Of a DNA stretch of 64,000 nt, positions 2,514-20,437 are shown piece after piece. Numbering within the stretch: position 1 is the stretch's first letter; the number at the start of each line of letters is the position of its first letter. A program made the translations under genes and the position numbers. The notes below the pieces were generated by a model. That model had not been told where the DNA came from and made no database searches. It was given only the letters and a program-made list of their open reading frames with translations. Where the stretch lies: the sequence record NZ_CP135254.1, one strand, 5' to 3'. The DNA is from a plasmid.

Positions 2514-5321
2514 TCAAATTTCGGAAGCAAAGGCTGGACTGACCTGTGCCCCCTGGTTCATGATCTCGACATAGCCAATTAGCTCTGCAGAGTAACTACC
2601 ATCCCCATTGGCGGCCCCCTTATGTTTCAGTTCCCGCTGCAGAGTCGGCTCAATAACATGCGTGAATATTTCCTGCCGTTGTTCGAGCGCAAACTTCGAT
2701 AATGTTACCGGTGCCTGCAGATATTGCTCAACCTGCCGCTCAACCACCGGAACTCGTGTACCATCTTGCTTAACGGCAATCGGCTGAACCACGACTCGAC
2801 GTTCACCATTGCCAGAAGAAGCTTCGACCATCCACAGAGAGAGCAGAACAGGGGTATCTAAGTCGCCAGAAACGGCAATGCCAATTTCCTCAGGCGGAAC
2901 ACTGCGCCAGCGGCCAAGCTCTTCCTGAACCAGAGGGTGATCCAAGCCCATCAACTCCAAGTTATCGCTGCTTGTCGCTAAATCTCGGTTCAATGTGAAT
3001 CGTTGTTGACTCGACCCATCAATAGTCACTAAGTCATAGGTCTCGTTGTCGATCTTGACCAAGCGTTGCTGACGATCTGCCACCGCTGCCGAAAGGAAGC
3101 GTACCAGCCGATCCAGACTAGATGAAACATCGGAAAATGGTTTGTAGTCATCAAGACTGAAACCATCAAGGTCTTGGAATAGGTCAAAAACAACCTGTCG
3201 AGCTTCCCGTGAATTTGAGAGCGCAGCCTCAAGTTCCACTTGTGTTCGTTTCAATTCAGGGTCTGACAAAGCTTCTTGGTAGAGTCGGTCATAATTTAGA
3301 CGCTCAGATAGCTGACCAAGAATCTGTGCACGCAGGTCTTCAGCTACGTTACCTTGATCGTCAACCTTACCGACTGTCTTGGCTATTTCCGTCAGCTTTT
3401 CATCAAGCATCAAGAAAATTCGCCCTTCGATGGTATCGGAGAGAACGAGGTTGTAGACCTGCGCCGTGTGGTTTTGACCATAGCGATGAATACGCCCGAT
3501 ACGCTGTTCCACATCCATCGGGTTCCATGGCAGATCGAAATTGAACAGGATGCGCGCAAATTGCAGATTCAAACCTTCACGGCCAGCTGCAGTACAAACC
3601 AGAACACGCGGCCCATTCTTCAAGCGGAATTTCCGTTCTGCCGCCAGCTTGGCTCCATGATCGCCACCACGCAAAACCACCACTCCCTGTCCTGGATACG
3701 CCTGTTCAATCTCGCGAGCAATTAGATCGACAGTCCCAAGATAGGTGGCGAAGATAACGATCTTCTCGCTGGCATTTTGCCGCCATAAATAACCCAGACC
3801 ATCAAGCAGCTTCTGCGCCTTAGTTTCACGCTGCTGCGGAAACACATTGAGAAGATCGCCAATTCGCAAACGCTCTTCTGGCAAGTGAAGCTCCACAACA
3901 GCCGACGCAGCTTCTTCGGCATTGGTTGCCAAGTATTCACTGCCATAAGGATCGGAGGCCATCTCAAGCGCCTCTGCATCAAGCTTTTTGACCAAACGGA
4001 ACTTGAGATCGGCCAACACTCGATCCACTTCGCTACGCCCAATGCTGTCGTAAGGCAGAGCATATTCTTCATGAATCAAAACTCGAGCTTCTTCAGTCAG
4101 ACGTTCACGCCCTTCAATATCAAGATCTTTATCGCGCAGTAATGCCTCGTGGAGGGTCAACATAAGCAGACGACGCTTGAGCGTTCGGCGTACAGCCGCG
4201 AAGCTTGATGCTGCTATCTTCTGGAAAATGGCCATCAAAAAGCCCAGCGCGCGCCCCTGGTTTCCTTGACGACGAGCCAAGTCAAAACCATCCTCCAGAT
4301 ACTCGCGCAACCTCTCGTAAAACAGCCGCTCATCCTCATTCATAAGGAACGACTCGGTATGAACCCAGCGACGAGCAAACAGTGGTGAACCATCTGGTTG
4401 GCAAGCATCCGCCTTGGTCCGGCGAAACATCACAGTATTGAGACGGTGGCGGTTCTCCAGCATTTCCTCTGGGCTACCAAACAAAGTGGGGTTCAGGAGC
4501 TGCGCCAGCATCCAGAACTGAAAGTGATTGCCCTGATGCGGCGTGGCCGATAACAACATCAGGTCACGAGAGTGATCTTTCAGCGCCTCGGCGAGCTTGT
4601 AATTCTCCGTCTTCCGGACCTTACCACCCGTTCGAGAAGCCGTCAGATGATGAGCCTCATCAAAAACCACCAGATCCCACCGAGGAGCATCCAGCAAGCG
4701 TTTAATACGCGCCGGACGTTTGAGTGTATCGATGCTCGCAATCAATCGATCGTGCTTGGCAAATGCATTGGTTTTACGGTCAGTTATGTCGCCCTCAGAA
4801 CCGAACACTTCAAAATCGAGGTTGAATACCTCGTTCAGCTCCCGGTGCCAGTTATTCACTAACCCTGCAGGTACCACCATCAGTGCGCGATTCAGCTCCC
4901 CTCTGCTGGCCAACTCACGCAAAATCAAAGCTGTTTCAATGGTTTTGCCCAACCCCACCTCATCAGCGATCAGATAGCGTCGGGGGGATGCTGTCGCAAT
5001 CCGGTGCGTCAGCACCACCTGGTGCGGCAGCAGGTCAATCTTTGCGGAAGTCAGTGCCGATGCACTTTCCATGACGGGCAACGCATGGGCCTCATAGGAC
5101 AACCACGCTTTGCGCGCCCGATCTGCGCCGCCATCAACGGCACGCAGGATGCGCTCGGTGCGTGAGAGCTGGCGCCGCACAGCGCCAACAGGTACGCGGC
5201 GTTCACCAACCCCAAAGAAAGCGCGCAGGTAACCATCTCGCACAGGATCAAGCACCACCCCCTGCCCGAACTCATGGTGAATAATCCGCTCACCTGGTTG
5301 AAACAATGCATCCGCTTCCAC
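2514..5321 (-). CDS. SNF2-family (SWI2/SNF2) helicase, candidate BrxHII-like component of the defence operon
   Basis: 935 aa with an ATP-binding motif DEVGLGKT, a DEAHH box, LLSATP, and a helicase C region (QRIGRIHRYGQ). It is the last gene of an eight-gene co-directional operon. Confidence 0.75.
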   Translation of the reverse strand: MEADALFQPGERIIHHEFGQGVVLDPVRDGYLRAFFGVGERRVPVGAVRRQLSRTERILRAVDGGADRARKAWLSYEAHALPVMESASALTSAKIDLLPHQVVLTHRIATASPRRYLIADEVGLGKTIETALILRELASRGELNRALMVVPAGLVNNWHRELNEVFNLDFEVFGSEGDITDRKTNAFAKHDRLIASIDTLKRPARIKRLLDAPRWDLVVFDEAHHLTASRTGGKVRKTENYKLAEALKDHSRDLMLLSATPHQGNHFQFWMLAQLLNPTLFGSPEEMLENRHRLNTVMFRRTKADACQPDGSPLFARRWVHTESFLMNEDERLFYERLREYLEDGFDLARRQGNQGRALGFLMAIFQKIAASSFAAVRRTLKRRLLMLTLHEALLRDKDLDIEGRERLTEEARVLIHEEYALPYDSIGRSEVDRVLADLKFRLVKKLDAEALEMASDPYGSEYLATNAEEAASAVVELHLPEERLRIGDLLNVFPQQRETKAQKLLDGLGYLWRQNASEKIVIFATYLGTVDLIAREIEQAYPGQGVVVLRGGDHGAKLAAERKFRLKNGPRVLVCTAAGREGLNLQFARILFNFDLPWNPMDVEQRIGRIHRYGQNHTAQVYNLVLSDTIEGRIFLMLDEKLTEIAKTVGKVDDQGNVAEDLRAQILGQLSERLNYDRLYQEALSDPELKRTQVELEAALSNSREARQVVFDLFQDLDGFSLDDYKPFSDVSSSLDRLVRFLSAAVADRQQRLVKIDNETYDLVTIDGSSQQRFTLNRDLATSSDNLELMGLDHPLVQEELGRWRSVPPEEIGIAVSGDLDTPVLLSLWMVEASSGNGERRVVVQPIAVKQDGTRVPVVERQVEQYLQAPVTLSKFALEQRQEIFTHVIEPTLQRELKHKGAANGDGSYSAELIGYVEIMNQGAQVSPAFASEI

Positions 5322-5330
5322 TCGTCGACC

Positions 5331-5840
5331 TCAGGTAATTCGTAAATGAAACAGTCCAGCTACTTTGGCGCCTTCACGCAGCAAAATTTCCTGTGGATAC
5401 TCATTAGCCTCCCCCCATAGCAGGCGACCAAAATCAATCTGATTCTCACGATAAGGCGCCTCGCATAACCATAAAACAGCATCATTAGTAACCAGTTGTT
5501 TAAGTCGACTGTGACCTTGAGGTAACCAGAAGATCAACGCAGCTTCACCACCGTAATAATCCTGAAACGAGAGAATGGCGCTTTTAATCGTTTCTCCCAG
5601 CCAGATTTCTCCCTGTTCAGGAGCTAACAGATCGAGACAACCATCAAGCCCGGCGACAACTAATGTCTGGTTGTCATTGCTAGGGAGATCATCGGGCCAA
5701 CGTCCTTGCGATTGTAGAAACTGCCGCAAACTCCAGACCTCACTTGCGACACAGACTTGATTGCGAGCCTCTTCGTCCCACAACCAACTGGTGCCTCGTC
5801 GTTGCCACACGGTATCTACAGTCTGTCGCATTATGCCCAC
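5331..5840 (-). CDS. Hypothetical protein (169 aa), operon member between the methyltransferase and the helicase
   Basis: ORF with 9-10 bp overlaps or gaps to both neighbours and no recognisable motif. It could be a BrxA- or DUF3780-like accessory, but that is speculative. Confidence 0.35.
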   Translation of the reverse strand: MGIMRQTVDTVWQRRGTSWLWDEEARNQVCVASEVWSLRQFLQSQGRWPDDLPSNDNQTLVVAGLDGCLDLLAPEQGEIWLGETIKSAILSFQDYYGGEAALIFWLPQGHSRLKQLVTNDAVLWLCEAPYRENQIDFGRLLWGEANEYPQEILLREGAKVAGLFHLRIT

Positions 5841-8800
5841 TCCTCATCATCGTCAAATAAGGAGCCCTGCACCGGTAATGGTGCCAAACTTGCCTGCCAA
5901 TTTCGGTAAATATGGACTGCGAGGGACGCTGCATTGCGGGTAGCTTGATCCGGACCATTACGGTGCAACCATTCCAGCAGTGAACGCAGCGCAACATGCG
6001 GCTTGAAATTATCGTTATTCAGCGTATCCGAGGCACTAATTCCACTGCCATCAAAGCACGCTCCGATCAATACCAGCGCTTGGTCGAGATCGGAGGTTAG
6101 CTTACGTCGATGTTTTCGTTGCCAATCACGGGAAAAATCGAGTGGATTAGTCCGAGTGAAAACCTTCTTCGCCTCCGAACACCAGTTACGCTGAACAAAA
6201 TCATCTGGGGTAGTCACAGTTCCACGCAAATACTTTTGCAATTGATCGCGCTTCATCTCGTTAACCGAACCAAAAGTGCGCAAAAATTGTCGGGTCATGG
6301 GCTCAGCGTTCACTGGTGGTGCTTCGTTGCCTTTATCTGCATCCTCATCAATCAGTTGGTTAATACCAACCAGAGCCTCCCTAACTGAAATCGTACGCCC
6401 TTCATCAACGTACACTTTGCCGTAATGGCGAGAGAAGTATTCCAATGCTTTACCACGGCGAATAACCTGAATATCTGCAGCGGGCAAACCTGATTGAGCA
6501 TGATTCTCCAACATTCCTTGCAATTGACGCACATCAGCCATCACCTCACGACGCATCCGCCCCCAACTCACCGGCTTTGGCTCTTCCGTGCGCTTGCGGC
6601 AGACATGGATGATGTCGTATTCGATAGTTTGAGAACCGAAGGTACCTGGCTTTGCTCCATCACCTTTTGTCTCATCCGAGCGAATTGGGTAAGTTGCTTC
6701 AAGGTAATACCCGGCATCGAACAGCGACTCCAATACCGCCACCCAAGGCTCATCCGCACTATGGTGGAAGGTGAAAGCCAAGATACCACCGGGCTTCAAG
6801 AGTCGATGCGCCTCACGCCAGCACTGGGTAAGCAGCCGCTGATAGAAACCATCTGGATCTTCCGGCTCGCGAGCCCGATTGGCTACTGCCTCCAGAGACT
6901 TTGGGGTGTACTCGGAGCCAAAGATTGCTGGGTATTTGTTCTTGAGCGCCAGGCGAAGCCATACGTAGAAGAAATCGGACAGCTCCGAATAGTGCAGTAA
7001 GCCACCGAACGGAGGATCGGTAATCACCAGATCTAGGCTACCGCTTTCAAGTTGTGACAGATCTGTAGACGAGCCCTGATGCACTTCCACGTCTACAACT
7101 GCATCACCGGGGAATACCTTTTCGCTACTTGATTTTTCAACACCATCACTGCGAACCCGAGATACAGATTGGGGACTGACAAGTTCGTAAGGATTCTTAC
7201 CCCATTCAATCCCTTCTATGACACCATCAGCACAAGATGACCAGCGCCCACTACCCATAATACCGAAGCAAGACCCTTCGACAACATTTGTCTTGGGGTG
7301 ATAGTTGTTATTACTCATGTGGGGCACCAACTTGTCATAATTGATATCCCAGAAACAGAACATATTTCTATAGCGAATACTCTGCTGGAAAGCACCTAGA
7401 AGAGCCTCTCTAACACTCCAAGGGTAATCGCCAATGGTGAGAATTCCTCTCAGCAGCTGGGCTTGTGCCAGCAACTGACGAGGGTTGAACATCGTCCACC
7501 AGTGCGTATAGCCGTGGTTTGGAATGCCGCCGTTATTCATGTGTGTCATGAAACCGAAAGGCACCTCTGAACGAGGCCAATAGTCTTTGAGATCGGTATC
7601 CTTTCGTGCTTCCCATTCAACGAGCGCGGCATCGTATTGGCATGCGTGAATTGCATCATATGCGGCGAAAAAACGCCCACTATAGGGTTTGCCTGCGGCA
7701 TCGCGCTTGGGGGCGTAACCATGTACCGCATAGGCAGCCATAGGCCCGGTCTTGCCTGTGGCTTTGATGGTGGTCAGTACGTCCTGAGTTGTGCCGCAGG
7801 CTGCGCAGACGTAATGGGATTTTTTCGGTACCGTGCCATTTTGCGGAGCAAAAATGACCTTTGTTTCTGGGCACGTCACTTCCTCCGGCAGCGCGCCGCG
7901 CACCTCCAGCAGCCGAATCTTGGATGCGCGTTCATTGTCCCACCGCGTGGTTGCAGCCACATCATCCTGCGCCGAGCCGCCGTAAGGCTGGCTATTCGTA
8001 TCCTGCTTAGGCGAACCCGCCAGCCATTGCGGATGCACCAGCAGGCTCAGTTCCACCTTCTTGTTCTTGCCCTTGCCGAGGTTAACCATCGCCGTATGGC
8101 CACAATGCGGGCAGATCACGCCCTTCCGGCGGTCGAGCACAGAAAACGGATGTTCGGAAGGTGCCACATACAGTGGCGCATCTGGGGCCATCCGCGCCAT
8201 ATCTTCCTCAACATGGAAGTCGCCGCCGCACTTACTGCACGAATGCTCCCAGTGTTTGACGCTGAGCGTTTTCACCGCCATCACCGGGCTTGTCATGATC
8301 GGCGTGCGGTGACCGCAGCCCGTTACCTGACAAGGGCCGTGCTTGGCCCAGAATGTGTAGATAATCTCCGGGCCTTCGTAACGGTAATCCTTGCGCTCGT
8401 CACGAGGGATGGTCAGCGGGTCGAAATCGGCGGGCATCACCTTCTTGGTCGGTAAGTGCGTCCACGAGCCTTTCTCACCTTCCGGGCCATCGCAGTAGTA
8501 GTACGGCATGATCTGCGGCTTGACCTCGGCCTCAATGTCGGCCAGCAGCTTTTTCACTTGCTCTAGATCGACATTGGCCAGTTCCTGCTTGACCACAAAC
8601 CACGCGACGGGATTCAGGTCGTTGCCGACCATCTGCATTCCAAGGCGCGAGCCTTCCACCAGTGTGGTGCCGCCGCCCATGAAGATGTCGGCCACCTTCA
8701 GGTCCTTGAACGCACCTTTTTTCTGGTGATTGGCATAGTAGTTGTCCCACACTAGCTTGGCTGCGTGCGATTTGTCTTCCGGGGCTTTGGTCGCCGCCGC

Positions 8801-9046
8801 GATCAACATTGAGCGGAACACGCTGGAGCGCCGCCGCGCCCACCACTTCGACATCTGGTAAATCGGCTTGCCCGCGTTGCCTTCGATGATCGCCACCTGA
8901 TTGACGGGCAGGATCGGGAAGTCCACCTCCAGGCAAGTCTTGGGACGATTCGGATCGTTGAAATCGACAGTTTCAAGCGCGACCGTCTTGCCTGCGCCGA
9001 CGGCTTTGGCGACTTCTTGCGCCAGTAGTTCTTTTTTGGTGGCCAT
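5831..9046 (-). CDS. Large N6-adenine DNA methyltransferase with Zn-ribbon motifs (DUF1156/COG1743-like; candidate PglXI-type BREX methylase)
   Basis: 1071 aa with the DPPFGG catalytic motif (a DPPY-type amino-MTase motif) and several CxxC pairs (CSKCGG, CPHCGH, CAACG) typical of COG1743 methylases. It is tightly coupled to the HerA gene upstream and the 169-aa ORF downstream. Confidence 0.6.
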   Translation of the reverse strand: MATKKELLAQEVAKAVGAGKTVALETVDFNDPNRPKTCLEVDFPILPVNQVAIIEGNAGKPIYQMSKWWARRRSSVFRSMLIAAATKAPEDKSHAAKLVWDNYYANHQKKGAFKDLKVADIFMGGGTTLVEGSRLGMQMVGNDLNPVAWFVVKQELANVDLEQVKKLLADIEAEVKPQIMPYYYCDGPEGEKGSWTHLPTKKVMPADFDPLTIPRDERKDYRYEGPEIIYTFWAKHGPCQVTGCGHRTPIMTSPVMAVKTLSVKHWEHSCSKCGGDFHVEEDMARMAPDAPLYVAPSEHPFSVLDRRKGVICPHCGHTAMVNLGKGKNKKVELSLLVHPQWLAGSPKQDTNSQPYGGSAQDDVAATTRWDNERASKIRLLEVRGALPEEVTCPETKVIFAPQNGTVPKKSHYVCAACGTTQDVLTTIKATGKTGPMAAYAVHGYAPKRDAAGKPYSGRFFAAYDAIHACQYDAALVEWEARKDTDLKDYWPRSEVPFGFMTHMNNGGIPNHGYTHWWTMFNPRQLLAQAQLLRGILTIGDYPWSVREALLGAFQQSIRYRNMFCFWDINYDKLVPHMSNNNYHPKTNVVEGSCFGIMGSGRWSSCADGVIEGIEWGKNPYELVSPQSVSRVRSDGVEKSSSEKVFPGDAVVDVEVHQGSSTDLSQLESGSLDLVITDPPFGGLLHYSELSDFFYVWLRLALKNKYPAIFGSEYTPKSLEAVANRAREPEDPDGFYQRLLTQCWREAHRLLKPGGILAFTFHHSADEPWVAVLESLFDAGYYLEATYPIRSDETKGDGAKPGTFGSQTIEYDIIHVCRKRTEEPKPVSWGRMRREVMADVRQLQGMLENHAQSGLPAADIQVIRRGKALEYFSRHYGKVYVDEGRTISVREALVGINQLIDEDADKGNEAPPVNAEPMTRQFLRTFGSVNEMKRDQLQKYLRGTVTTPDDFVQRNWCSEAKKVFTRTNPLDFSRDWQRKHRRKLTSDLDQALVLIGACFDGSGISASDTLNNDNFKPHVALRSLLEWLHRNGPDQATRNAASLAVHIYRNWQASLAPLPVQGSLFDDDEEWA

Positions 9047-9056
9047 TCAAGCTTCC

Positions 9057-10868
9057 TTAATCTTCTTGTGCGCGGGATTGGCGGCGCATGTTTTCTACGG
9101 CGGCAACCAAATCGACTTCGGCCTTGGGCGTGGCCCAGCGGGTCCAGAAGGGGATCGTTGCACTGCGCGGTTCATGTTTTGGCTTGGCCATCTTGATGCG
9201 GGTCGGCAGCAGGGTGGCGTCGCCAACCACTACAGCCTCGCCTACGTCCAGCGTCGGCAGCACCTCCATCAGCCCCTCCAGGCTTTCTGGCAAGAGCTGC
9301 TTGACCACCGCCTGGTCGGTCTTGTTGGCCAGGCGCAGGCTGATGATGTTGCTGCACTGGCTGAGAATGGTCGTGCTGACATCCGAGGGGCGCTGACTGA
9401 CCACCATCAGCCCAACTCCGTACTTGCGGCCCTCTTTGGCGATGCGCTCGTAGTTTTCCAAGGCGCGCTTTTCCAGCGGGCCAGTGGAGGCGGCGCTGCT
9501 TGGCAGGTAGAGATGCGCCTCATCGCAAACGATGACAATCGGGTGGCGCGCATCGCCGTCTTCGCCCGGGCTGCTCCAGAACTGGATTTGGTAGATCAGC
9601 CGCCCGACCAAGCCCACAACCACTGGCAAGATGTCCGAGGGCACCTCGGAAAAGTCGATGATTTTGATGCCCGGATTGACGCCATCGTTGACGTTGCCTG
9701 TACCGAGCAGTTTCTTGGCGAGATCGTGTAGTGCCTCGTAGGTCTCGTAGTCCTCCGGTGCCTGATACATGAACGCATAGCGGCGGTCGTTCATTTTGGT
9801 TTTCAAGCGAATGAGGAAGCGAGAGAGCTTGCCGTTCAACGGGCCTTTTTCGGTTTTGGGCTGTCCCTTCTTCGCACCGCTGACGTATTCCTCGCCTGTG
9901 GGAATGACCTCGTCGTTTTTTCGGTCGAGGGATTCCACCAAGTCATTCAACTTGTAGGGAACCGGTGTGTCGACCGTAAACCCTTCCAGCAACTCCGGCT
10001 TGCCTAGCGCATTGATGGCAGCGCGTTTCATTTCAACGACCGAATCCATCAGGGCAAGCGCCTGATTGGGCGCATTGTCACCGGAGCGATCCACAAAAAC
10101 GGATTGCATCTCGTCATATGTCAGCAGCCAGAAAGGCAGGAAGATCGCGCCGTCTTTCTTGGTCTTGATATCGCCAATGCCTGCGATGCGGTAATGCGAG
10201 GCGAATTTCATGCTCGAATACTCGCCATGCAAATCGAGCACGACGATATTCGCGTGAGGCAGTTGTGCGGACTGCTCAAGGATGGAGGCGACGGTGAAAG
10301 ATTTTCCCGAGCCCGTGCTGCCCAGCAGCGCGGCATGGCGCTGGAAAAGCTTGTCGCCATCGATGTAGGCACTGGCCTTGCCATCCAAGGTATAGGTACC
10401 GACCTTGAGTGGGGCTGCCGCATCCGCCTTGGATGAAGCGCTCAAAATCCCCATGAAGTCTTCGAGCGACTTTTCTTCAATGGGAAACACGGGCCGGTTG
10501 ATCTCCGGCAGGATGAAAACGGCACGTGTGAAGGTGTCCTTGCGCTGCCCATCCCGAGCACGATAGGTGCCGACCAAGCTGATCGACACGCCGTTTTCCT
10601 CTTGAGGCACGCCAGCCAGATCCGCTGGCGGATCAACTTCAGGTAGCGTCGGCAGCTCCACCGGATGCCGCCAAACTCGTTCGATGATGCCGATCAGCCA
10701 TTCATCGCCCATCGACTGGATGGCAACCAATCGACCGACGCGCGCCTTTTGCAGGCGTTGGCCATCCGTCACCCGCACGGTGATCCGCGAGGTTTCAACA
10801 CTGCGGACTTCGCCCAATGACTGCTCGTCGGTGAAATTGAAAATGCTCATCCTCGCCTCACTCCACAA
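9057..10868 (-). CDS. herA: HerA-like (DUF87/FtsK-HerA superfamily) ATPase, partner of the SIR2 protein
   Basis: 603 aa with Walker A GSTGSGKS and a Walker B/DEAH-like PIVIVCDEAH. It overlaps the upstream SIR2 gene by 11 bp, the canonical SIR2-HerA pair layout. Confidence 0.7.
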   Translation of the reverse strand: MWSEARMSIFNFTDEQSLGEVRSVETSRITVRVTDGQRLQKARVGRLVAIQSMGDEWLIGIIERVWRHPVELPTLPEVDPPADLAGVPQEENGVSISLVGTYRARDGQRKDTFTRAVFILPEINRPVFPIEEKSLEDFMGILSASSKADAAAPLKVGTYTLDGKASAYIDGDKLFQRHAALLGSTGSGKSFTVASILEQSAQLPHANIVVLDLHGEYSSMKFASHYRIAGIGDIKTKKDGAIFLPFWLLTYDEMQSVFVDRSGDNAPNQALALMDSVVEMKRAAINALGKPELLEGFTVDTPVPYKLNDLVESLDRKNDEVIPTGEEYVSGAKKGQPKTEKGPLNGKLSRFLIRLKTKMNDRRYAFMYQAPEDYETYEALHDLAKKLLGTGNVNDGVNPGIKIIDFSEVPSDILPVVVGLVGRLIYQIQFWSSPGEDGDARHPIVIVCDEAHLYLPSSAASTGPLEKRALENYERIAKEGRKYGVGLMVVSQRPSDVSTTILSQCSNIISLRLANKTDQAVVKQLLPESLEGLMEVLPTLDVGEAVVVGDATLLPTRIKMAKPKHEPRSATIPFWTRWATPKAEVDLVAAVENMRRQSRAQED

Positions 10869-11934
10869 ATTTTTTCAAAAAGTCATCTAGCTGCCAGAGC
10901 GGCTCTGGTGACCGCAGTGCATTCCCTTTCCAGCGACAAACGGCCCCGTCCCCATCTTTGAACACGGCAATCACGTGAGGGTGTTCGCCAAGTAGTTGTT
11001 CAATGTTCGGAGTCGGGTTGCGCGTGACAATGATTGCGGGCATGCCTGCGGCCAGGCGGCGCTTGATGACGCCTTGCAAATGATCGTCGTTGAAGCCAAA
11101 CCCGATACATAACAGCGCCTGAGCATCAGCAAGCGCCGCATTCATCGCTGTACGCATTTCGTCAAACAAGATATTGACCAATGCGTCTTGGTACTTCGAG
11201 GGGCCGGGCACAACGATGGCTCGTTCCGCGACGGAAACATCGTTGAGAACTTCCACTGGCCCCTCATCCGTTGTCAGCCAACTGATTGAGCCATGAGGCT
11301 TATACAGACGAACTGTTTTACAGATGCGGTGATCGACCTGCTGCTGGCGTTTCTCGGCCACCAGAACACGGCTGTATTGCGTCTGGAAGAGTGGCCGGGG
11401 GCGCGGCTTACGCCGACGGAACCCTGTGAATCCTGTGTCCAGAGGGATTTCCGCGAGATCGCAAAACAATTCCAACAACGTATCGTAGTTAGTCGTAATG
11501 ACATGGATGCTGTCCGTGTTCTGCGGTGAGCCACTAAACAAACGATTCAGGAGGCGTGACGGCGCATGACCACCGGCAACCTTTTCGCCAAGAATTTTTG
11601 CCTCTGCGGCGATGGCTCTATCAAGAATCAACTTCGCGGTTTCTCCGCGTAGGGCTGACACGATCTCTCCCCATTCCGCCATGCCAAGCGGAATGCCATT
11701 CAGCCCAGCTTCGAGATTTGCCTTGATTGCGTCGACTGATTGCGCCCAGGTATTCCTTGCCCCATCGGTGGACAGAGCATCGTGCACAGCGGTTGCCAAG
11801 TGCTCCGCCAAGGCACCCATGCCGGGAAGGCCATAGCCGCAGGAAAAGCCAGAGCCGACAAGCAGCACCGGGGTTTTGCGAAAAAACCCTTGGATATCTG
11901 CGAAAAAATCGTCTGGCAAGTCGGCGGCTGTCAT
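10858..11934 (-). CDS. SIR2-like (SIR2_2 family) NADase-type effector of a SIR2-HerA antiphage system
   Basis: 358 aa with the N-terminal PVLLVGSGFSCGYGLP motif (the Rossmann GxGxS of SIR2_2 family proteins) and an ITTNYDTLLE motif. It lies immediately upstream of herA on the same strand. Confidence 0.65.
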   Translation of the reverse strand: MTAADLPDDFFADIQGFFRKTPVLLVGSGFSCGYGLPGMGALAEHLATAVHDALSTDGARNTWAQSVDAIKANLEAGLNGIPLGMAEWGEIVSALRGETAKLILDRAIAAEAKILGEKVAGGHAPSRLLNRLFSGSPQNTDSIHVITTNYDTLLELFCDLAEIPLDTGFTGFRRRKPRPRPLFQTQYSRVLVAEKRQQQVDHRICKTVRLYKPHGSISWLTTDEGPVEVLNDVSVAERAIVVPGPSKYQDALVNILFDEMRTAMNAALADAQALLCIGFGFNDDHLQGVIKRRLAAGMPAIIVTRNPTPNIEQLLGEHPHVIAVFKDGDGAVCRWKGNALRSPEPLWQLDDFLKKFVE

Positions 11935-11940
11935 ATCTAC

Positions 11941-12960
11941 CTACTTCGATAGTTCAACGAAGGGCGACAGCACTTCCAGCAGCGAGAGGCCGCCGTGCGT
12001 CAATGTCGGGTAACCGCCCTGACTGCGCCACTTTCTGCGGCCCAGCGCCAACAGGTGCGCACCGTGCGGACTGTCAATTTGCAACGCAACGGGAGGCACA
12101 AAGGGGCCAGTGTCACCGTTACCAGCCTTGCTACGCCCGCTTGAGAACGTTTGCTTGAGGTGGGCGACAACCTCACCATCGGCATCGGGGAAGTAACCCG
12201 TGGCGGCGTAGCCGTGATCCGAGGTAATGACCAAGCGCCGCCCAGTGGCGAGGCGCTCAACAAAGGCCCAAAAGTCGTCACTAGAAAGTTGCTGCGCAGC
12301 ATCCTTGGTCAGCAGCTCCAGACCTTGGCCTGCGCCGTAGTCGTGCAGCTTGGCGTCTGGCCAGTGATGCCAGAACACCCAGTTCTTCGCGCCAGATGCA
12401 CTGCCCACCAAACCTTCGCAATCCTTCCACGGCAGATCGATGGTTTCGGTCTGCGCGGGTTGAAGTTTGTGTGCCAATCCACCGCCGTTGGCCTGCAACT
12501 GGCTTCGGCTGGACAAGCCCAGCGCTCGGGCAAACTCGTTGGTTTCGCCGGGTAATTCGGAGGCGGTCGCTGTGACGCCCTGCAGGGTGAATCCACGTTC
12601 TTTCGCTCCCTGCAGCAACCAAGGCAGTTCGCGCAGGCTCAGGGCATCCAGAACCAGCACGGCGCGGGCAGCACTGTTGCCATAACTCGGCTCGGCCCAC
12701 CAACGCGCAAGACGGTCTGAGGTGCGTTCCACGCCGCTGATCTCGGATTGTCCGAAGCATCGCCACAGATCCCAACCACTGGACGCAAGGAACAGATCGA
12801 GCTCGCCGATCTCGCGGTCGCGCTTTACGACCTCGCCCGGGGCATTGCCCTCGGCCAATGGTCGTGAGGCGATATCGAGCGTGCGTTCGATGATGAAACT
12901 CCACGCATCCGCTGCGGTGCCTTGAGTCAGACGCTGCAATATTCCTGCATCAAGCGCCAT
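11941..12960 (-). CDS. Short PglZ-like (alkaline-phosphatase-fold) protein
   Basis: 339 aa with RRLVITSDHGYAATGYFP, the TxDHG signature of the alkaline phosphatase superfamily to which PglZ belongs. Its start overlaps the stop of the upstream 718-aa gene (ATGA), and the SIR2 gene begins 6 bp after its stop. It is much shorter than BREX type-1 PglZ (about 850 aa). Confidence 0.45.
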   Translation of the reverse strand: MALDAGILQRLTQGTAADAWSFIIERTLDIASRPLAEGNAPGEVVKRDREIGELDLFLASSGWDLWRCFGQSEISGVERTSDRLARWWAEPSYGNSAARAVLVLDALSLRELPWLLQGAKERGFTLQGVTATASELPGETNEFARALGLSSRSQLQANGGGLAHKLQPAQTETIDLPWKDCEGLVGSASGAKNWVFWHHWPDAKLHDYGAGQGLELLTKDAAQQLSSDDFWAFVERLATGRRLVITSDHGYAATGYFPDADGEVVAHLKQTFSSGRSKAGNGDTGPFVPPVALQIDSPHGAHLLALGRRKWRSQGGYPTLTHGGLSLLEVLSPFVELSK

Positions 12961-15116
12961 CAGTTGTCCTCCTTCTCAAGACTCAGCTCGAAAGTCATGC
13001 CATCGGGCAGCTTCTTGAGCAGTTCCTTGAGCTGCGCGCCGGTGGCGGCAGACACCTTGATTGAGACTTCTGCCACAGGCGTGGCCGGGCCAATACCCCA
13101 GCCTTCGAGCTTGCCGATCAGGTTTAGCGGCGAGGTTGGCGGGTTAGAGAGCGGGATGCGCGGTTTGGTGGTGCTGCTTGTGCCGCCACCAAAAATGTCA
13201 CCTCCATTCTGCGACGTACCGGTGCCGGGAGTGTTATCGCCACCAACAGGTGCGGGTGGTGTGGTCGTGCCACCGCCAAAGATATCGCCGCCCGATCCAT
13301 TATTGGGGGTGCCTGCAGGTGGCTGCGGCACGGGTGGAGTAGTGCCGCCAGTGGCAGGCACAGCCGAGGGTTCCATAAGGAACACTTCATCAAGCTGACG
13401 CCCGGTATAGGAGAGTTTGGGCCGCAAGCGCCGCCACGCAGATTCCTCGTCCTCGCCTGCGTGGGTTTGCAGATGCTCCAGATTACGCAGGTTGATGGCG
13501 ATCTTGCCGCGCGCGCACAGACGGAGGATGCGCTCCTTCATCGCAGTTTCGCCCAGCCAAGGGATGCAATCCTGGCCTGCCGGGCGTGGCTCCTGCAGTT
13601 CGCGCAGCAGCTTGCCGAGGGATGCGTTCTCAGATGCCGCTTCGAGCACGAGCTCTTCGAAGTCTTCGGGCACGAAGAGATCGTTGGTCAGCGTTTCCTC
13701 GATGCCCTCGGGAATTTGTGCACCTTGCTTTTTCAAGTGCTCGACACTGAATAGAGATTGCTGCGGGTTTTGGTGATCGTAGCGGTGCAAGACAGCGAAA
13801 CGGTCAAAGCGCTTCTTCAGGTTGTCACGCAGGGTGCCTTCGAACTCTTTGTGGAGCTTTTTGTATTCCGCCGGATTTGTGGAATTATGGCCGCTCCATT
13901 CCTGCGCCTTCATTTCAGCGCGCGCGAGGATGAGCAGATCGCGATCCAGGAATGCATTGGTGGAACCAGATCGGGGCAACAGGAAGCGAACTGTATTGCG
14001 GCGCTTTTGCAGGTGATCTTTGAGCCAACGGCCCAGTGTCTGATCGATTTTTTCCGGTTCTTCCGGCAGTACCAGGACAGGCAAACGGTCATCCCAGCGC
14101 TCTGGCTGCTCGGCTTCATCTAGTGATGTCCATGGGTCTGTCTGCCAAGATCTAGGCAGTGCAATCACGCGGAAATTTTTTGCGACCTCATCGCTGCCGC
14201 CGATGACATAGCGAGCCTGTTTGGCCAACTGTGCCAGATCGGAGCCATCGGTAAATAGCTTGTCGTTACGGGCACAAACCATCAATTTGGCACGAGGGTT
14301 TTCTTCCTCACGAAAGACCATACGCGGGCCATCCTGATGGATGTTGAAGCTGTTCTCGACAATCGTTGCCAGCTCGACCTGGAAAGCATTGCCATCCACA
14401 GGCTTGTTTCGAGTGATGTCCACCTGCAGCGTGGCGGGATCGGCTCCCGCGAGGTTGCCGACGGCAATCGACCGCAGCCACAGTGCCCCCACGATCTCTT
14501 GCAGGTGTGGTGCAAGGTTGGCGTGGTTGTATACCGCCTCGGTCACCGAGATGATGTTGTGCTGCGCTTTTTCTCGCAGGGTGCGATGGTGCTCATTAGA
14601 AACCGAATCCAGCAGTGCGCCGATGCCCGATGCATCGTCATCCAGCCGGAAGTCGGCGGCGGTGAGCACAGGCACGGCTTCGCCACGGCTCTTGTAAAGA
14701 TTAGCCAAGATGCGAATCATGTCGCGCGTTTCCTGCGCGTCAGTGGCGATCAGCACCTGTTCCTCAAGCAGACGTAACAGGTGCGGTGCATAAGGCCAAG
14801 ACTCGGTGAACTCGCGACGCTTGCGATCCTGCTCGGCGGGCGGCACATCAAGCAGGCGGAAGTATTCTGAGACGTGCTGGGCAACTAGTGATTCAATGGT
14901 GCCATCGGCAATCTGCAAGCGGTTGTCGAACAGACGGTGCAACAACATCCGGCGCCGATCCTGCTGTATACGCTCGGCATTACCCCCCGCCTTGAAGTCG
15001 ATGGCCACCGGGTTGACGCGGTGAACCTGCTGGTAGGCATCGCTGCCGCCATTGCGCACGGATATCACGAGCACCAACAAATCAGGGGTCGTCTCAGAAT
15101 TCGGAAAATAAAGCAC
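12960..15116 (-). CDS. Large uncharacterised protein (718 aa), first gene of the defence operon; no P-loop; low-complexity Gly/Thr/Pro tail with repeated GGDIFGGG
   Basis: ORF translation shows no Walker A motif, and its C-terminal 120 aa is a G/T/P-rich linker plus a small terminal domain. It may be a 5'-truncated or divergent BrxC/DUF499-class component, or a novel protein. Confidence 0.35.
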   Translation of the reverse strand: MLYFPNSETTPDLLVLVISVRNGGSDAYQQVHRVNPVAIDFKAGGNAERIQQDRRRMLLHRLFDNRLQIADGTIESLVAQHVSEYFRLLDVPPAEQDRKRREFTESWPYAPHLLRLLEEQVLIATDAQETRDMIRILANLYKSRGEAVPVLTAADFRLDDDASGIGALLDSVSNEHHRTLREKAQHNIISVTEAVYNHANLAPHLQEIVGALWLRSIAVGNLAGADPATLQVDITRNKPVDGNAFQVELATIVENSFNIHQDGPRMVFREEENPRAKLMVCARNDKLFTDGSDLAQLAKQARYVIGGSDEVAKNFRVIALPRSWQTDPWTSLDEAEQPERWDDRLPVLVLPEEPEKIDQTLGRWLKDHLQKRRNTVRFLLPRSGSTNAFLDRDLLILARAEMKAQEWSGHNSTNPAEYKKLHKEFEGTLRDNLKKRFDRFAVLHRYDHQNPQQSLFSVEHLKKQGAQIPEGIEETLTNDLFVPEDFEELVLEAASENASLGKLLRELQEPRPAGQDCIPWLGETAMKERILRLCARGKIAINLRNLEHLQTHAGEDEESAWRRLRPKLSYTGRQLDEVFLMEPSAVPATGGTTPPVPQPPAGTPNNGSGGDIFGGGTTTPPAPVGGDNTPGTGTSQNGGDIFGGGTSSTTKPRIPLSNPPTSPLNLIGKLEGWGIGPATPVAEVSIKVSAATGAQLKELLKKLPDGMTFELSLEKEDN

Positions 15117-15300
15117 GCTAGCGGTTGATCTGTCAGGTTGAAGCCTGAGAGGCCGAGCGCAGATCGTCAGAAAAGGCGAAAAACGATCCTAATCTGACGC
15201 AACATAGGTGGGGTGCCTGACGCCCGGTTGAGGCATAGCCTAGATTGACATGCGCGATGCAACCCTTAACTTGCTTGCACCTATCGTTTCCATGCTAGCT

Positions 15301-15432
15301 TTATCGTAACGCTAAGGAAGCTCTGAAAAAGCCCATGTTTCGCGAAATCACCGCTCTGTAACCCGCATGGTTGCTGGGATGCATTTCTCGAGCGGGGGCT
15401 TTTTCAGACCTTCCTTAGCTTAGCGTACGATT
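15301..15432. repeat. Imperfect inverted repeat of about 33 bp (cgtaacgctaaggaagctctgaaaaagcc versus ggctttttcagaccttccttagcttagcgtacg) flanking an ~60-bp spacer
   Basis: Read directly. It lies in the promoter-proximal region upstream of the 718-aa gene, between the operon and the repB remnant. Confidence 0.4.
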
Positions 15433-15473
15433 TTTTCCGAATTCTGCGGTTCCCCCTGGAAGACCTACGCAAG

Positions 15474-16073
15474 TTGGGCCAGCTCAGAGGTGGAATCAAC
15501 GAAGGCGAGCGAATGAGGCATCTTTTCTGGCGTCTTAACTTTCTCCTTCTCTCCGGGGCAACAAACAGCGCCCAGATGTACCATGAGGCCGCCGCTCTTT
15601 CCTCCGAGCTGGATACTCGTTGGTCTTACCGCTCCAAAGAGCTTATGACGCTCTACAGCAAGGCGAAATCCTATGAGGCTGGGGAACGTGTCGAGTTCGG
15701 CGGAAAGTCGTTTGCACCGCTATACACGCCCAAAAACGACACGCTGATCAACCTATTCCAGATCTCACAGCAAGAACAAGAGCAACTGAAGACGATTATC
15801 AGCACTGACGAGGCTCAGAAGCGCCGCAGAGAGCGCGATAGACTGCGTGATGAAGAACGTCGCCGCGCCGCTGGCCAGCTTGAGCGTGAAGCCTATGAAG
15901 CCAACTCATTGAGCAGGCAAAAGCCCTGGGAAGCTATGGGCATGAGCCGGGCTAAATGGTATCGCCTGGGCAAGCCTTCACCTCAACAAAACAGTGAGAC
16001 AAGTCCCTCCCCTATTACTAATGGCGAAGCCTCAGCGGTTGCCCTTCAGGCGGCCAGGTGTAAAGCCGTTTAG
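15474..16073 (+). pseudogene. Truncated replication-protein remnant (position consistent with delta-repB of NTEKPC-I contexts)
   Basis: 199-aa ORF with a charged R/E-rich segment (KRRRERDRLRDEERRR) and no complete domain. Its position next to the klcA region matches the published delta-repB...klcA...korC...ISKpn6...blaKPC arrangement. The identity is inferred from context. Confidence 0.35.
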
Positions 16074-16221
16074 ATGGCTATTTCAAAGTGAGTGAGATTT
16101 CGTAACGGATGGCAGCCCTAGAGGCTGCTTTCTTTTGAGGGGTTAGCAGGCGTATAGCCATGCTGGATCTCAGTCTATCACTACCTGCTTAATATTCCAC
16201 CTTTAGATCCGGCAGCAGTTC

Positions 16222-16450
16222 GACCAGGTGGCCAACTTACCAGGCACCGGCAGCAGCTCGACCGGGTGGCCAAGTTCAGATCTGGACGCCAGAAGGAAAT
16301 CAACCAGGTGGCCAACTTACCAGGCACCGGCAGCAGCTCGACCAGGTGGCCAAGTTCAGATCTGGACGCCAGAAGGAAATCAACCAGGTGGCCAACTCAC
16401 CAGGCATCGGCAGCAGCTCGACCAGGTGGCCCATTTCGTACGTACGAAAT
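16222..16450 (+). repeat. Tandem array of about 80-bp units (about 2.7 copies), each with two CCAGGTGGCCAAC(T/G)T submotifs; possible iterons
   Basis: Units begin near 16222, 16305 and 16385 (the third is degenerate and ends in the palindrome cgtacgtacg). The ORFs called across it (16228-16623, 16266-16499) are probably repeat artefacts. Confidence 0.7.
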
Positions 16451-16535
16451 CAGGCGACGCTATGCGAAATCTTGGCGGCAATCCCCCGCGACTACGTGAT
16501 TTTTTTAACGTAGAGCGCGCTTTTTCTTGCCATAG

Positions 16536-16552
16536 TAGGCCATTTTGGCCTA
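16536..16552. promoter_or_regulatory. 17-bp palindrome TAGGCCATTTTGGCCTA, a KorC-operator-like site, upstream of the 92-aa ORF
   Basis: Perfect palindrome resembling the IncP KorC operator class (TAGGGCATAATGCCCTA). It is followed by the conserved leader gaagaccgggcacccgccacggtcaataccggagaactccgATG. Confidence 0.45.
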
Positions 16553-16606
16553 TAATCTTAATTAAGAAGACCGGGCACCCGCCACGGTCAATACCGGAGA
16601 ACTCCG

Positions 16607-16885
16607 ATGATCCACACAGCTAACCGCACCTTTCACCAACTCTATCGAGAATGGATACGCGAACGCCGCGAGCATATGCACAACGTTTTGACCTGGGAGC
16701 GTGATCGTTACGGTGCTCGCCTCGTCGGTCTGTTTTATCGTTACTGCAAGGTGGCCAACCCCTTTCCCCGTTGCACTCTGAATACTCGGATCAACTACCG
16801 CGCCCATGCGGTGAATCTGCCAGATTGGCCAGCCCGCAGCCTGGAGCTGAATAAAATGTGGCTCAGTTGGAGAGAAAAAAAGTAG
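16607..16885 (+). CDS. Hypothetical 92-aa protein sharing a duplicated leader with klcA (korC/orf6-region gene of KPC islands)
   Basis: ORF preceded by the same ~45-bp leader and RBS as klcA. No HTH is evident. Confidence 0.4.
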   Translation: MIHTANRTFHQLYREWIRERREHMHNVLTWERDRYGARLVGLFYRYCKVANPFPRCTLNTRINYRAHAVNLPDWPARSLELNKMWLSWREKK

Positions 16886-16899
16886 GCCGATTTGGCCTA
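16883..16899. promoter_or_regulatory. KorC-operator-like palindrome TAGGCCGATTTGGCCTA (imperfect)
   Basis: Second copy of the palindrome family, upstream of klcA. Confidence 0.4.
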
Positions 16900-16925
16900 T
16901 TTTTTATTGTACCCGCTTGACACAA

Positions 16926-16942: not shown

Positions 16943-16995
16943 TTATATATCTCAGAAGGCCGGGCACCCGCCACGGTCAATACCGGAGAACTCCG

Positions 16996-20436: not shown

Positions 20437-20437
20437 C

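What the first reader, a model, noticed from the sequence alone, without database searches (positions are those of the whole stretch)
9057..11934. A SIR2-HerA antiphage pair embedded inside the BREX-like operon
The SIR2_2-domain gene (GSGFS...GLP, TTNYD) and the HerA/DUF87 ATPase (GSTGSGKS, VCDEAH) form the known two-gene SIR2-HerA system. Here they are not a separate island. They are inserted in-frame in the operon between the PglZ-like gene (6-bp gap) and the DUF1156 MTase (10-bp gap). Embedded restriction modules are known in plasmid BREX loci, such as BrxU in pEFER, but I do not know of a described SIR2-HerA insert inside a BREX-like operon. Shared transcription implies co-regulation of an abortive-infection NADase with a methylation-based system.
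Basis: partly seen in the sequence, partly recalled or inferred. Interest (0 to 1): 0.75.

Follow-up and report, generated by a model that had tools for sequence, protein, structure and literature searches.

The report
SIR2-HerA cassette inside BREX-related operon
A known two-gene phage-defence module (SIR2 NADase plus HerA ATPase) sits as swappable cargo between two genes of a BREX-related defence operon on a KPC-2 resistance plasmid; this kind of nesting is already described, and here the host operon has lost its front end.

Summary
Window 10858-11934 (-) encodes a 358-aa SIR2 protein and 9057-10850 (-) a 597-aa HerA ATPase. Catalytic and Walker motifs are intact. The pair lies 6 bp after a standalone PglZ gene and 10 bp before a DUF1156 methyltransferase gene.

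The host operon is not canonical BREX. Its gene content matches the "Type-3 BREX-Related" (DUF499-centred, Hma-like) system described in 2026.

Comparative loci show the pair is an insert. A 75%-identical Burkholderia operon lacks it exactly. Among 73 species-level loci, the PglZ-to-MTase junction is:
- empty in 37
- SIR2-HerA in 12, plus 2 decayed remnants
- IetAS in 10
- Ppl in 3
- unknown genes in 9

Close relatives of this pair also follow type I, III, IIL and C5 methylase restriction-modification genes, or stand alone in islands. It therefore looks autonomous.

Embedding of defence systems in Hma, BREX, DISARM and RM loci is already published (Payne et al. 2024).

In this plasmid a Tn3-family transposon end at 15085 removed the operon's regulator, promoter region and the DUF499 P-loop. 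The claimed co-regulation is therefore unsupported for this copy.

Verdict: a new member of a known kind, of modest interest.

The parts
15085..15122 (.). Tn3-family-like 38-bp terminal inverted repeat (GGGGTCGTCTCAGAATTCGGAAAATAAAGCACGCTAGC). It marks the point where homology to the intact operon stops.
   Evidence: The window is 99.8% identical to pKPN-262 (L002) over 1560-15086, with one difference across 2400-15086, and unrelated beyond 15086. This is the only copy of the repeat in the window, and the missing 5' part of the operon is absent from all 64 kb. Assignment to the Tn3 family rests on my own knowledge of such repeats.
12960..15086 (-). 3' fragment of the DUF499 AAA+ ATPase gene (BrxC-like). 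It starts at about residue 214 of a 921-aa protein, so Walker A (67-74) and Walker B (174-179) are lost. Probably a dead gene.
   Evidence: The full-length homologue in pKPN-262 hits Pfam DUF499 (E=6.7e-7, 27.9 bits against a cut-off of 23) and weakly PADLOC HmaC.
11941..12960 (-). Standalone PglZ-domain protein (339 aa, alkaline-phosphatase superfamily). It is the upstream flank of the cargo slot.
   Evidence: The family profile hits PDB 9nv3_C 'PglZ domain-containing protein' at E=1.9e-7 and PorX at E~6e-3. The AF2 model has pLDDT 93.4. Foldseek top hits are PorX (5e-11) and BREX PglZ 9zn5_B (3e-7). D105, S108, D248 and G250 are invariant; T140, H249 and H322 are nearly so.
11935..11940 (-). 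Upstream cassette junction: 6 bp between the PglZ stop and the SIR2 start.
   Evidence: In the Burkholderia operon without cargo, the PglZ stop is followed by 13 nt and then the MTase ATG.
10858..11934 (-). SIR2 NADase-type effector (358 aa).
   Evidence: N149 and H214 align with the catalytic N226 and H287 of S. aureus Sir2. They are invariant in 11 embedded homologues.
9057..10850 (-). HerA-type hexameric ATPase/translocase (597 aa).
   Evidence: PDB HerA chains of defence complexes match at E=2.9e-75 to 2.8e-21. Walker A and B are intact.
9047..9056 (-). Downstream cassette junction: 10 bp (GGAAGCTTGA) that retain a ribosome-binding-like GGAAG ahead of the MTase ATG.
5831..9046 (-). DUF1156-type N6-adenine DNA methyltransferase (1071 aa). 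It is the downstream flank of the cargo slot.
   Evidence: Pfam N6_N4_Mtase 29.4 bits (cut-off 26.7). PADLOC HmaB E=7.8e-35, PglXI E=4.2e-24, DUF1156_MTase E=1.2e-17. RefSeq names it DUF1156.
5331..5831 (-). 166-aa conserved small protein in the position of the 'iSTAND' component of Type-3 BR systems.
   Evidence: Conserved in position in nearly all related loci. No Pfam, PADLOC or PDB sequence hit. The assignment rests on position and size against the published description.
2514..5321 (-). SNF2-family helicase without a nuclease fusion (935 aa, BrxH-like).
   Evidence: Pfam SNF2-rel_dom E=2.3e-21 and Helicase_C E=1.3e-16. PADLOC BrxHI|BrxHII E=1.9e-102, HmaA E=7.7e-91, DrmD E=2.4e-73.

Best explanation
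Window 9057-11934 is an intact, self-contained SIR2-HerA defence cassette. It occupies a recurrent cargo slot, the PglZ-to-methyltransferase intergenic junction, of a Type-3 BREX-Related (DUF499 / Hma-like) defence operon.

By homology to solved systems (inferred, not shown here), HerA would form a hexameric ATPase that binds and activates a ring of SIR2 subunits. On phage infection the complex would hydrolyse NAD+ and stop growth of the infected cell.

The cassette does not appear to need the host operon. The same clade also sits behind unrelated restriction-modification systems and stands alone in genomic islands. The same slot in sister operons holds unrelated systems.

In intact copies the 6-bp and 10-bp spacings would make it part of the operon transcript (inferred). 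In this plasmid the operon's regulator, upstream region and ATPase P-loop were removed at a transposon end. The host system is therefore probably disabled, and whether SIR2-HerA is expressed is unknown.
For: Identity.

The pair is an insert:
- The Burkholderia sp. YI23 plasmid carries the same five-gene operon at 75% nucleotide identity, with the PglZ stop followed by 13 nt and then the MTase start, and no SIR2-HerA.
- pKPN-262 carries the intact eight-gene version with the pair.

The slot is recurrent. Of 73 species-level loci with the junction on the contig: 37 empty, 12 intact SIR2-HerA, 2 remnants, 10 IetAS (IetA E=2.1e-144, IetS E=0), 3 Ppl (E=2.1e-137), 9 with unknown genes.

Autonomy:
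- SIR2-HerA pairs at 80-86% SIR2 identity lie directly after hsdM-hsdS-hsdR, a type III mod-res pair, hsdM/hsdS and a C5 methylase. More distant pairs (53-66% SIR2 identity) lie after an MmeI-like enzyme, next to an Mrr nuclease and next to an integrase. An 81% pair lies beside guaBA.
- In a SIR2+HerA tree, the non-BR copies are nested among the embedded ones.
- Some non-BR copies keep about 45 nt of the PglZ 3' end.

No consensus promoter or terminator lies on the minus strand between 9000 and 12000.

Truncation.

Mechanism of solved homologues.

The embedding phenomenon is published.
Against: No functional data exist for this clade. Its SIR2 is only distantly similar to the solved ones (E=2.2e-10 to 3.4e-4). 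Its HerA is closer to the HerA of a DUF4297-HerA complex (9c1m, E=2.9e-75) than to the HerA of solved SIR2-HerA complexes.

The frequent position directly behind methylation-based systems could reflect a functional link rather than hitch-hiking.

The promoter scan is a crude sigma-70 consensus search, so it cannot exclude an internal promoter inside the PglZ gene.

The 80 genome loci were chosen by PglZ similarity (>=71% identity). The slot frequencies therefore describe only this sub-clade.
Confidence: 0.8

Rival explanations
1. SIR2-HerA is functionally wired to the host modification system as a second-layer guard. It would be held inactive by, or take its signal from, the BR or RM machinery and fire when a phage disables that machinery. 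The model is PrrC with the EcoprrI type I system.
For: The coupling to flanking genes is tight (6 and 10 bp). Close relatives of the clade are found again and again immediately downstream of DNA methylase/restriction genes of four different kinds, as well as in the BR operon. PrrC is described as almost exclusively embedded in type I RM. The 2026 BREX paper proposes that auxiliary effectors may need system-encoded inputs.
Against: The partners are mechanistically unrelated: type I, III, IIL, a C5 methylase and BR. A specific protein-protein guard interaction with all of them is unlikely. Copies also occur with no modification system nearby, next to guaBA, an integrase or metabolic genes. The same slot carries IetAS, Ppl and unknown genes. 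SIR2-HerA systems from other species work as isolated two-gene constructs.
Confidence: 0.12
2. In this plasmid the pair is a silent passenger. With the operon's 5' end removed it is no longer transcribed at useful levels, and it persists only because the truncation is recent.
For: The HTH gene, the upstream region and about 213 codons of DUF499 are missing. No consensus minus-strand promoter lies between 15087 and about 16900. The retained 12.7 kb differs from the intact pKPN-262 copy at one base, so there has been no time for decay. 19 PLSDB plasmids share this exact truncated junction.
Against: All six downstream ORFs are intact. Transposon ends and internal sequences often supply promoters that a consensus scan misses. 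Decayed SIR2-HerA remnants do exist elsewhere (L010, L020), but not here.
Confidence: 0.3
3. The pair is a housekeeping or plasmid-maintenance module (for example DNA repair by HerA with a protein deacetylase), not a defence system.
For: HerA and sirtuins have non-defence roles in other contexts (general knowledge).
Against: The best matches are defence-specific PADLOC models at E=9.6e-88 and 1.8e-225. All strong PDB hits are antiphage complexes. Many of the contexts examined are defence or restriction genes, though a few copies lie next to guaBA or other metabolic genes.
Confidence: 0.02

Closest known systems
SIR2-HerA (Nezha) two-gene antiphage system (Gao et al. 2020; structures from E. 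coli, S. aureus and Paenibacillus sp. 453MF)
   Same: Gene order is SIR2 then HerA. The SIR2_2 domain has the catalytic Asn/His dyad. The HerA has DUF87 and HerA_C domains with Walker A and B. Sizes are similar. PDB chains of all three solved SIR2-HerA complexes are hit by both proteins.
   Different: The SIR2 is only distantly related to the solved ones (E=2.2e-10 to 3.4e-4). The HerA is closer to the HerA of a DUF4297-HerA complex (9c1m, E=2.9e-75) than to the HerA of SIR2-HerA complexes (E=1.2e-61 to 2.8e-21). This copy lies inside another system's operon with no intergenic room for its own promoter.
Type-3 BREX-Related (BR) system, DUF499-centred (NAR 2026, gkag035); overlaps the 'Hma' system of PADLOC
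   Same: The host operon has the described parts: DUF499 ATPase, standalone PglZ, DUF1156 N6-methyltransferase, a small protein in the iSTAND position, and a nuclease-less SNF2 helicase.
   Different: That paper says Type-3 BR loci lack, or only rarely carry, auxiliary nucleases, and its text and held supplements never mention SIR2. Here, and in about half of the 73 close relatives examined, the operon carries embedded cargo. In the window the ATPase gene is truncated.
[quoted passage not shown] 2024 preprint)
   Same: A known defence system is nested between genes of a methylation-based multi-gene system. Embedded cassettes vary between related loci. HEC-01, defined there as an Hma-embedded candidate, occupies a second slot (iSTAND to SNF2) in sister loci.
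   Different: The text held does not name SIR2-HerA, IetAS or Ppl as embedded cargo, nor this PglZ-to-MTase slot. Figures are not held, so I cannot exclude that they show it.
BrxU/GmrSD embedded in the pEFER plasmid BREX locus, and PrrC embedded in EcoprrI
   Same: A second, mechanistically different defence is encoded inside a modification-based locus on a mobile element (own knowledge; PrrC embedding).
   Different: BrxU is a type IV nuclease and PrrC an anticodon nuclease that is physically regulated by its host RM enzyme. Nothing here shows such coupling for SIR2-HerA.

Membership tests
SIR2-HerA antiphage system | Two adjacent co-directional genes, SIR2 then HerA | tested here: met
   SIR2 10858-11934 (-) and HerA 9057-10850 (-), 7 nt apart with GAGG before the HerA ATG.
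SIR2-HerA antiphage system | SIR2-family Rossmann domain with the catalytic Asn and His | tested here: met
   Pfam SIR2_2 E=7.5e-13; PADLOC SIR2 E=9.6e-88. N149 and H214 align with SaSir2 N226 and H287 and are invariant in 11 homologues.
SIR2-HerA antiphage system | HerA/FtsK-type ATPase with Walker A/B and the HerA C-terminal domain | tested here: met
   DUF87 E=4.3e-29, HerA_C E=8e-9, PADLOC HerA E=1.8e-225. GSTGSGKS at 177 and VIVCDE at 439.
SIR2-HerA antiphage system | SIR2 and HerA assemble into a complex with NADase activity and protect against phage | not testable with these tools
   Needs biochemistry and plaque assays. Shown only for homologues from other species.
Type-3 BREX-Related (DUF499-centred) system | DUF499 AAA+ ATPase | tested here: inconclusive
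   Met in the intact copy pKPN-262 (Pfam DUF499 27.9 bits against cut-off 23; Walker A at 67, Walker B at 174). In the window only residues from about 214 to 921 remain.
Type-3 BREX-Related (DUF499-centred) system | N6-adenine methyltransferase of the DUF1156 / BrxXI-like type | tested here: met
   N6_N4_Mtase is above its cut-off. PADLOC HmaB E=7.8e-35, PglXI E=4.2e-24, DUF1156_MTase E=1.2e-17. The Pfam DUF1156 domain itself is below its cut-off (16.6 against 24 bits). RefSeq names it DUF1156.
Type-3 BREX-Related (DUF499-centred) system | Standalone PglZ as a separate gene | tested here: met
   The family profile hits a PDB PglZ-domain chain at E=1.9e-7. The AF2 model (pLDDT 93.4) matches PorX and BREX PglZ best. 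The protein is 339 aa with no extra domains.
Type-3 BREX-Related (DUF499-centred) system | Swi2/Snf2 helicase without a nuclease fusion (BrxHII-like) | tested here: met
   SNF2-rel_dom and Helicase_C are present with no nuclease domain in Pfam. PADLOC BrxHI|BrxHII E=1.9e-102.
Type-3 BREX-Related (DUF499-centred) system | Inactive STAND (iSTAND) small protein | tested here: inconclusive
   A conserved 166-aa gene is in the expected place, but it has no Pfam, PADLOC or PDB sequence hit.
Canonical BREX (types 1-6) | BrxA, BrxB/BrxF, BrxC, PglX-type methyltransferase and a large multi-domain PglZ | tested here: not met
   The seven window proteins and the full-length DUF499 and HTH proteins of pKPN-262 gave no BrxA, BrxB, BrxF or BrxC model hit. 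PglZ is a 339-aa standalone domain, and the only PADLOC PglZ hit has E=0.08. Only the PglXI-like and BrxH-like similarities are shared.
Embedded defence cassette (Payne et al. 2024 sense) | Encoded between genes of a multi-gene defence system, present in some and absent from other homologous host loci, and also found outside that host | tested here: met
   Absent from L001 and 37 further loci, present in 12. Found outside BR operons in about 30 metagenome loci.

The most novel reading that the evidence does not exclude
The PglZ-to-methyltransferase junction of Type-3 BR operons is a dedicated exchange slot for abortive-infection modules (SIR2-HerA, IetAS, Ppl and at least one uncharacterised ~310-aa gene). 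This SIR2-HerA clade, which repeatedly sits right behind DNA-modification systems of five kinds, would act as a guard that fires when the modification-based first layer is neutralised by a phage. That would be a generalised PrrC-like logic for an NADase system.
Probability: 0.1. Interest if true: 0.7.

Novelty: new member of a known kind. Interest (0 to 1): 0.3.

Why it matters
This shows that carbapenem-resistance plasmids of Klebsiella carry a layered phage-defence locus alongside blaKPC-2. The exact SIR2 protein is on 980 public contigs.

For defence biology, the useful result is comparative. One precise intergenic slot in a BREX-related operon is filled by at least four different cargo types. 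Another ~310-aa gene of unknown function occurs there in five species and is a ready candidate for a new defence gene.

The slot also offers natural with/without pairs for testing whether embedded abortive-infection modules act independently of, or in concert with, a methylation-based system.

None of this overturns current understanding.

Tried and rejected
- **PglZ by single-sequence searches.** Pfam and PADLOC gave no usable hit for the 339-aa protein (PglZ E=0.08 only). Single-sequence phmmer against PDB gave nothing.
- **First structure model.** The first AF2 model used a shallow alignment (22 sequences, at least 77% identical). It reached only pLDDT 50 and was discarded. A deeper alignment from the representatives search fixed this.
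- **iSTAND.** No sequence-level support was found.
- **Mobile-element signature.** I looked for conserved flanks or repeats around the cassette. None exist; the boundaries coincide with the SIR2 start and the HerA stop.
- **Composition.** GC and GC3 of the pair are not distinct from the flanking genes.
- **Missing 5' part.** I searched the whole window for the missing front of the operon and for a second copy of the inverted repeat. Neither is present. IS26 ends are also absent.
- **Literature.** No paper names SIR2-HerA inside BREX, BR or Hma, or on KPC plasmids.
- **DISARM as host.** Rejected. DrmD-like similarity of the helicase exists, but there is no DrmA, DrmB or DrmC, while a PglZ and a DUF499 ATPase are present.
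Full report
**1. What is in the window**

The minus strand of window 2514-15116 carries a run of tightly spaced co-directional ORFs. Profile searches identify them as follows:
- 12960-15116: an ORF with no Pfam or PADLOC hit, annotated in RefSeq as DUF499
- 11941-12960: 339 aa, no hit
- 10858-11934: SIR2 (Pfam SIR2_2 E=7.5e-13; PADLOC SIR2 E=9.6e-88, full length)
- 9057-10868: HerA (DUF87 E=4.3e-29, HerA_C E=8e-9; PADLOC HerA E=1.8e-225)
- 5831-9046: a large N6-adenine methyltransferase (PADLOC HmaB E=7.8e-35, PglXI E=4.2e-24, DUF1156_MTase E=1.2e-17)
- 5331-5840: a small protein, no hit
- 2514-5321: an SNF2 helicase (BrxHI|BrxHII E=1.9e-102, HmaA E=7.7e-91, DrmD E=2.4e-73)

There are 6 bp between the 339-aa gene's TAG and the SIR2 ATG. 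There are 10 bp between the HerA TAA and the methyltransferase ATG.

One correction concerns the HerA start. The ATG at 10850, preceded by GAGG, gives 597 aa and matches RefSeq. It is more plausible than the overlapping TTG at 10868.

**2. The pair is a bona fide SIR2-HerA system by sequence**

The SIR2 protein hits the SIR2 chains of all three solved SIR2-HerA complexes (8yhx, 8j4u, 8w9l), though only at E=2.2e-10 to 3.4e-4. Its N149 (in TTNYD) and H214 (in KPHGS) align with N226 and H287 of S. aureus Sir2. Zhen et al. identified that pair as the catalytic dyad, and H287 mutation abolishes NADase activity. Both residues and the GSGFS loop are invariant in 11 embedded homologues of 62-92% identity.

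HerA has Walker A (GSTGSGKS, 177) and Walker B (VIVCDE, 439). It hits HerA chains of defence complexes at these E-values:
- 2.9e-75 for 9c1m, a HerA-DUF4297 complex
- 1.2e-61 for 8wiv, Paenibacillus SIR2-HerA
- 1.2e-32 for 8j4u

In the solved systems HerA binding activates the SIR2 NADase within a large HerA-hexamer/SIR2-ring complex. The Paenibacillus system also shows nuclease, ATPase and helicase activities. That mechanism is inferred for this pair, not shown.

**3. The host operon**

The window is the start of a KPC-2 plasmid identical to NZ_CP084988.1 (K. pneumoniae, 142 kb, IncFII/IncU typing).

K. pneumoniae plasmid pKPN-262 carries the intact operon. Its order is: HTH_17 regulator (82 aa), DUF499 ATPase (921 aa; Pfam DUF499 above its cut-off; Walker A at 67, Walker B at 174), the 339-aa gene, SIR2, HerA, the DUF1156 methyltransferase, the 166-aa gene and the SNF2 helicase.

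The 339-aa protein is a standalone PglZ domain:
- A profile of 41 family members down to 29% identity hits PDB 9nv3_C 'PglZ domain-containing protein' at E=1.9e-7 and PorX at about 6e-3.
- An AlphaFold2 model built on that alignment has mean pLDDT 93.4.
- Its best Foldseek matches are PorX (5e-11) and a BREX PglZ (9zn5_B, 3e-7), followed by other alkaline-phosphatase-superfamily enzymes.

This gene set is what Type-3 'BREX-Related' (DUF499-centred) systems are described as having: DUF499 ATPase, standalone PglZ, DUF1156 methyltransferase, a small protein, and a nuclease-less Snf2 helicase. The description is in NAR 2026 gkag035, which also equates the DUF499-centred systems with PADLOC's 'Hma'.

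The 166-aa gene sits where the iSTAND component is expected, but I could not confirm its fold.

It is not canonical BREX: no BrxA, BrxB, BrxF or BrxC model matches.

**4. The pair is an insert in a recurrent cargo slot**

A Burkholderia sp. YI23 plasmid has the same operon at 75% nucleotide identity. There the PglZ stop is followed by 13 nt and then the methyltransferase ATG, with no SIR2-HerA.

A scan of one genome per species with the PglZ protein returned 80 loci. I mapped the operon proteins onto them. Of the 73 loci with the PglZ-to-MTase junction on the contig:

| Content of the junction | Loci |
|---|---|
| Empty (80 nt or less, mostly 15) | 37 |
| Intact SIR2-HerA (one with an extra ~310-aa gene) | 12 |
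| SIR2-HerA deletion remnants | 2 |
| IetAS (IetA E=2.1e-144, IetS E=0) | 10 |
| Ppl (E=2.1e-137) | 3 |
| An unknown ~310-aa gene | 4 |
| Other small unknown inserts | 5 |

Two more slots exist. The iSTAND-to-SNF2 junction carries HEC-01 (ABC ATPase plus DUF4276; E=5.5e-141 and 1.7e-71) in six loci. The MTase-to-iSTAND junction carries small unknown genes.

The cassette boundaries coincide with the SIR2 start codon and the HerA stop codon. I found no repeats or conserved flanks.

**5. The cassette looks autonomous**

A metagenome scan with the SIR2 alignment found about 25 further BR-embedded copies. It also found about 30 copies of the same clade with no BR gene within 6 kb. Their neighbours fall into two groups.

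Close relatives (80-86% SIR2 identity) directly follow modification genes:
- hsdM-hsdS-hsdR (L086, L087)
- a type III mod-res pair (L089)
- hsdM and hsdS (L090)
- a C5 methylase (L107)

Other copies have varied neighbours:
- an MmeI-like enzyme upstream (L121, 64%)
- an Mrr nuclease (L116, 66%)
- an integrase (L129, 53%)
- guaBA (L136, 81%)
- metabolic genes (L118, 61%)

In a neighbour-joining tree of SIR2+HerA, the non-BR copies are nested among BR-embedded ones. Five non-BR copies (L091-L094, L096) still carry about 45 nt of the PglZ 3' end. This implies escape from a BR operon.

Repeated movement between mechanistically unrelated hosts, together with unrelated cargo in the same slot, argues that the pair works on its own. 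The position directly behind DNA-modification systems is striking, however. It keeps a guard-type coupling, like PrrC with EcoprrI, alive as a minority reading.

**6. This copy sits in a broken operon**

Homology to the intact operon ends at window 15086. There is one base difference over the 12.7 kb from 2400 to 15086, which gives HerA H199 in place of Q.

Homology stops exactly at a 38-bp sequence, GGGGTCGTCTCAGAATTCGGAAAATAAAGCACGCTAGC (15085-15122). I recognise this as a Tn3-family terminal inverted repeat (own knowledge). Beyond it lies the blaKPC-2 platform: a rep-like ORF, the klcA antirestriction gene, KPC-2, ISKpn27 and Tn3 genes.

The HTH gene, the upstream region and DUF499 residues 1 to about 213, including both Walker motifs, are absent from the whole 64-kb window. 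Nineteen PLSDB plasmids share this junction.

It cannot be assumed here. The host system probably lacks ATPase function, and expression of everything downstream is uncertain.

**7. Novelty**

Payne et al. (bioRxiv 2024.01.29.577857) report that 62.7% of 1,485 Hma systems contain embedded genes, and that about 23% of those genes belong to known defence systems. [quoted passage not shown] Their HEC models are 'Hma-embedded candidates'.

The held text of that preprint and of the 2026 BREX paper never names SIR2-HerA as cargo, and neither do the supplements held. Figures are not held. Further literature searches found nothing specific.

The finding is thus a specific, apparently unreported instance of a described phenomenon, involving two described systems. 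It is a new member of a known kind.

The comparative by-products may be the more useful outcome. These are the defined slot with at least four cargo types, the uncharacterised ~310-aa slot gene, and the association of this SIR2-HerA clade with modification systems.

Noticed in passing
window 15085-15122 and 15123-22200: A Tn3-family-like 38-bp inverted repeat abuts the truncated DUF499 gene. Beyond it lies the blaKPC-2 platform: a rep-like ORF at 15474-16073, the klcA antirestriction gene at 16996-17421, KPC-2 at 19281-20162, ISKpn27 at 20438-21418, a resolvase and a Tn3 transposase. The resistance platform's arrival apparently broke the defence operon.
   Followed up: partly
L008:11020-11985, L018:11019-11948, L039:11008-11928, L076:11000-11923, L017:4125-5072: A conserved gene of about 310 aa with no Pfam or PADLOC hit occupies the same PglZ-to-MTase slot in five species. 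In L017 it sits together with SIR2-HerA. By 'guilt by embedding' it is a candidate new defence gene.
   Followed up: partly
L027, L037, L063, L066, L080, L082 (iSTAND-to-SNF2 junction, for example L037:17584-19316): A second cargo slot in the same operon carries HEC-01 (ABC ATPase plus DUF4276). L037 and L063 carry both SIR2-HerA and HEC-01; L082 carries IetAS and HEC-01. These are three-layer operons.
   Followed up: partly
L029:14230-14817, L035, L052; L072:9586-12235; L062:14786-15513: A third slot (MTase to iSTAND) holds a 195-aa unknown gene in three loci. In L072 it holds a 398-aa protein with weak similarity to the non-SIR2 N-terminal part of SIR2-associated prokaryotic Argonaute models (E=1.6e-13) plus a 333-aa protein. 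In L062 it holds a PDC-S09 candidate (E=3.6e-46).
   Followed up: partly
L010:11027-11937 and L020:8527-8775: Deletion remnants of SIR2-HerA sit at the slot (a partial SIR2 fused to the HerA tail; an 82-aa SIR2 stub). The cargo is therefore lost as well as gained.
   Followed up: no
L091-L094, L096 (about 50 nt upstream of SIR2); L136:5940-5985: SIR2-HerA copies outside any BR operon retain about 45 nt of the PglZ 3' end. In L136 a 'FVELTK*' coding remnant lies next to guaA. These are scars of excision from a BR operon.
   Followed up: partly
alignment A2: Within embedded pairs SIR2 diverges much faster than HerA (for example L040: SIR2 62% against HerA 87% identity to the window proteins). 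The methyltransferase (64-86%) also diverges faster than its flanking helicase, consistent with variation in specificity domains.
   Followed up: no
L001:16099-17555: In the Burkholderia plasmid the operon is preceded by an integrase gene and an excisionase-like HTH gene. The HTH_17 gene is conserved upstream of many loci. The whole BR operon may travel as, or be regulated like, a small integrative element.
   Followed up: no
window 10254: The only base difference from pKPN-262 across 12.7 kb changes HerA residue 199 (H here, Q there). The H199 form is on 71 public contigs, while the SIR2 protein is on 980.
   Followed up: partly
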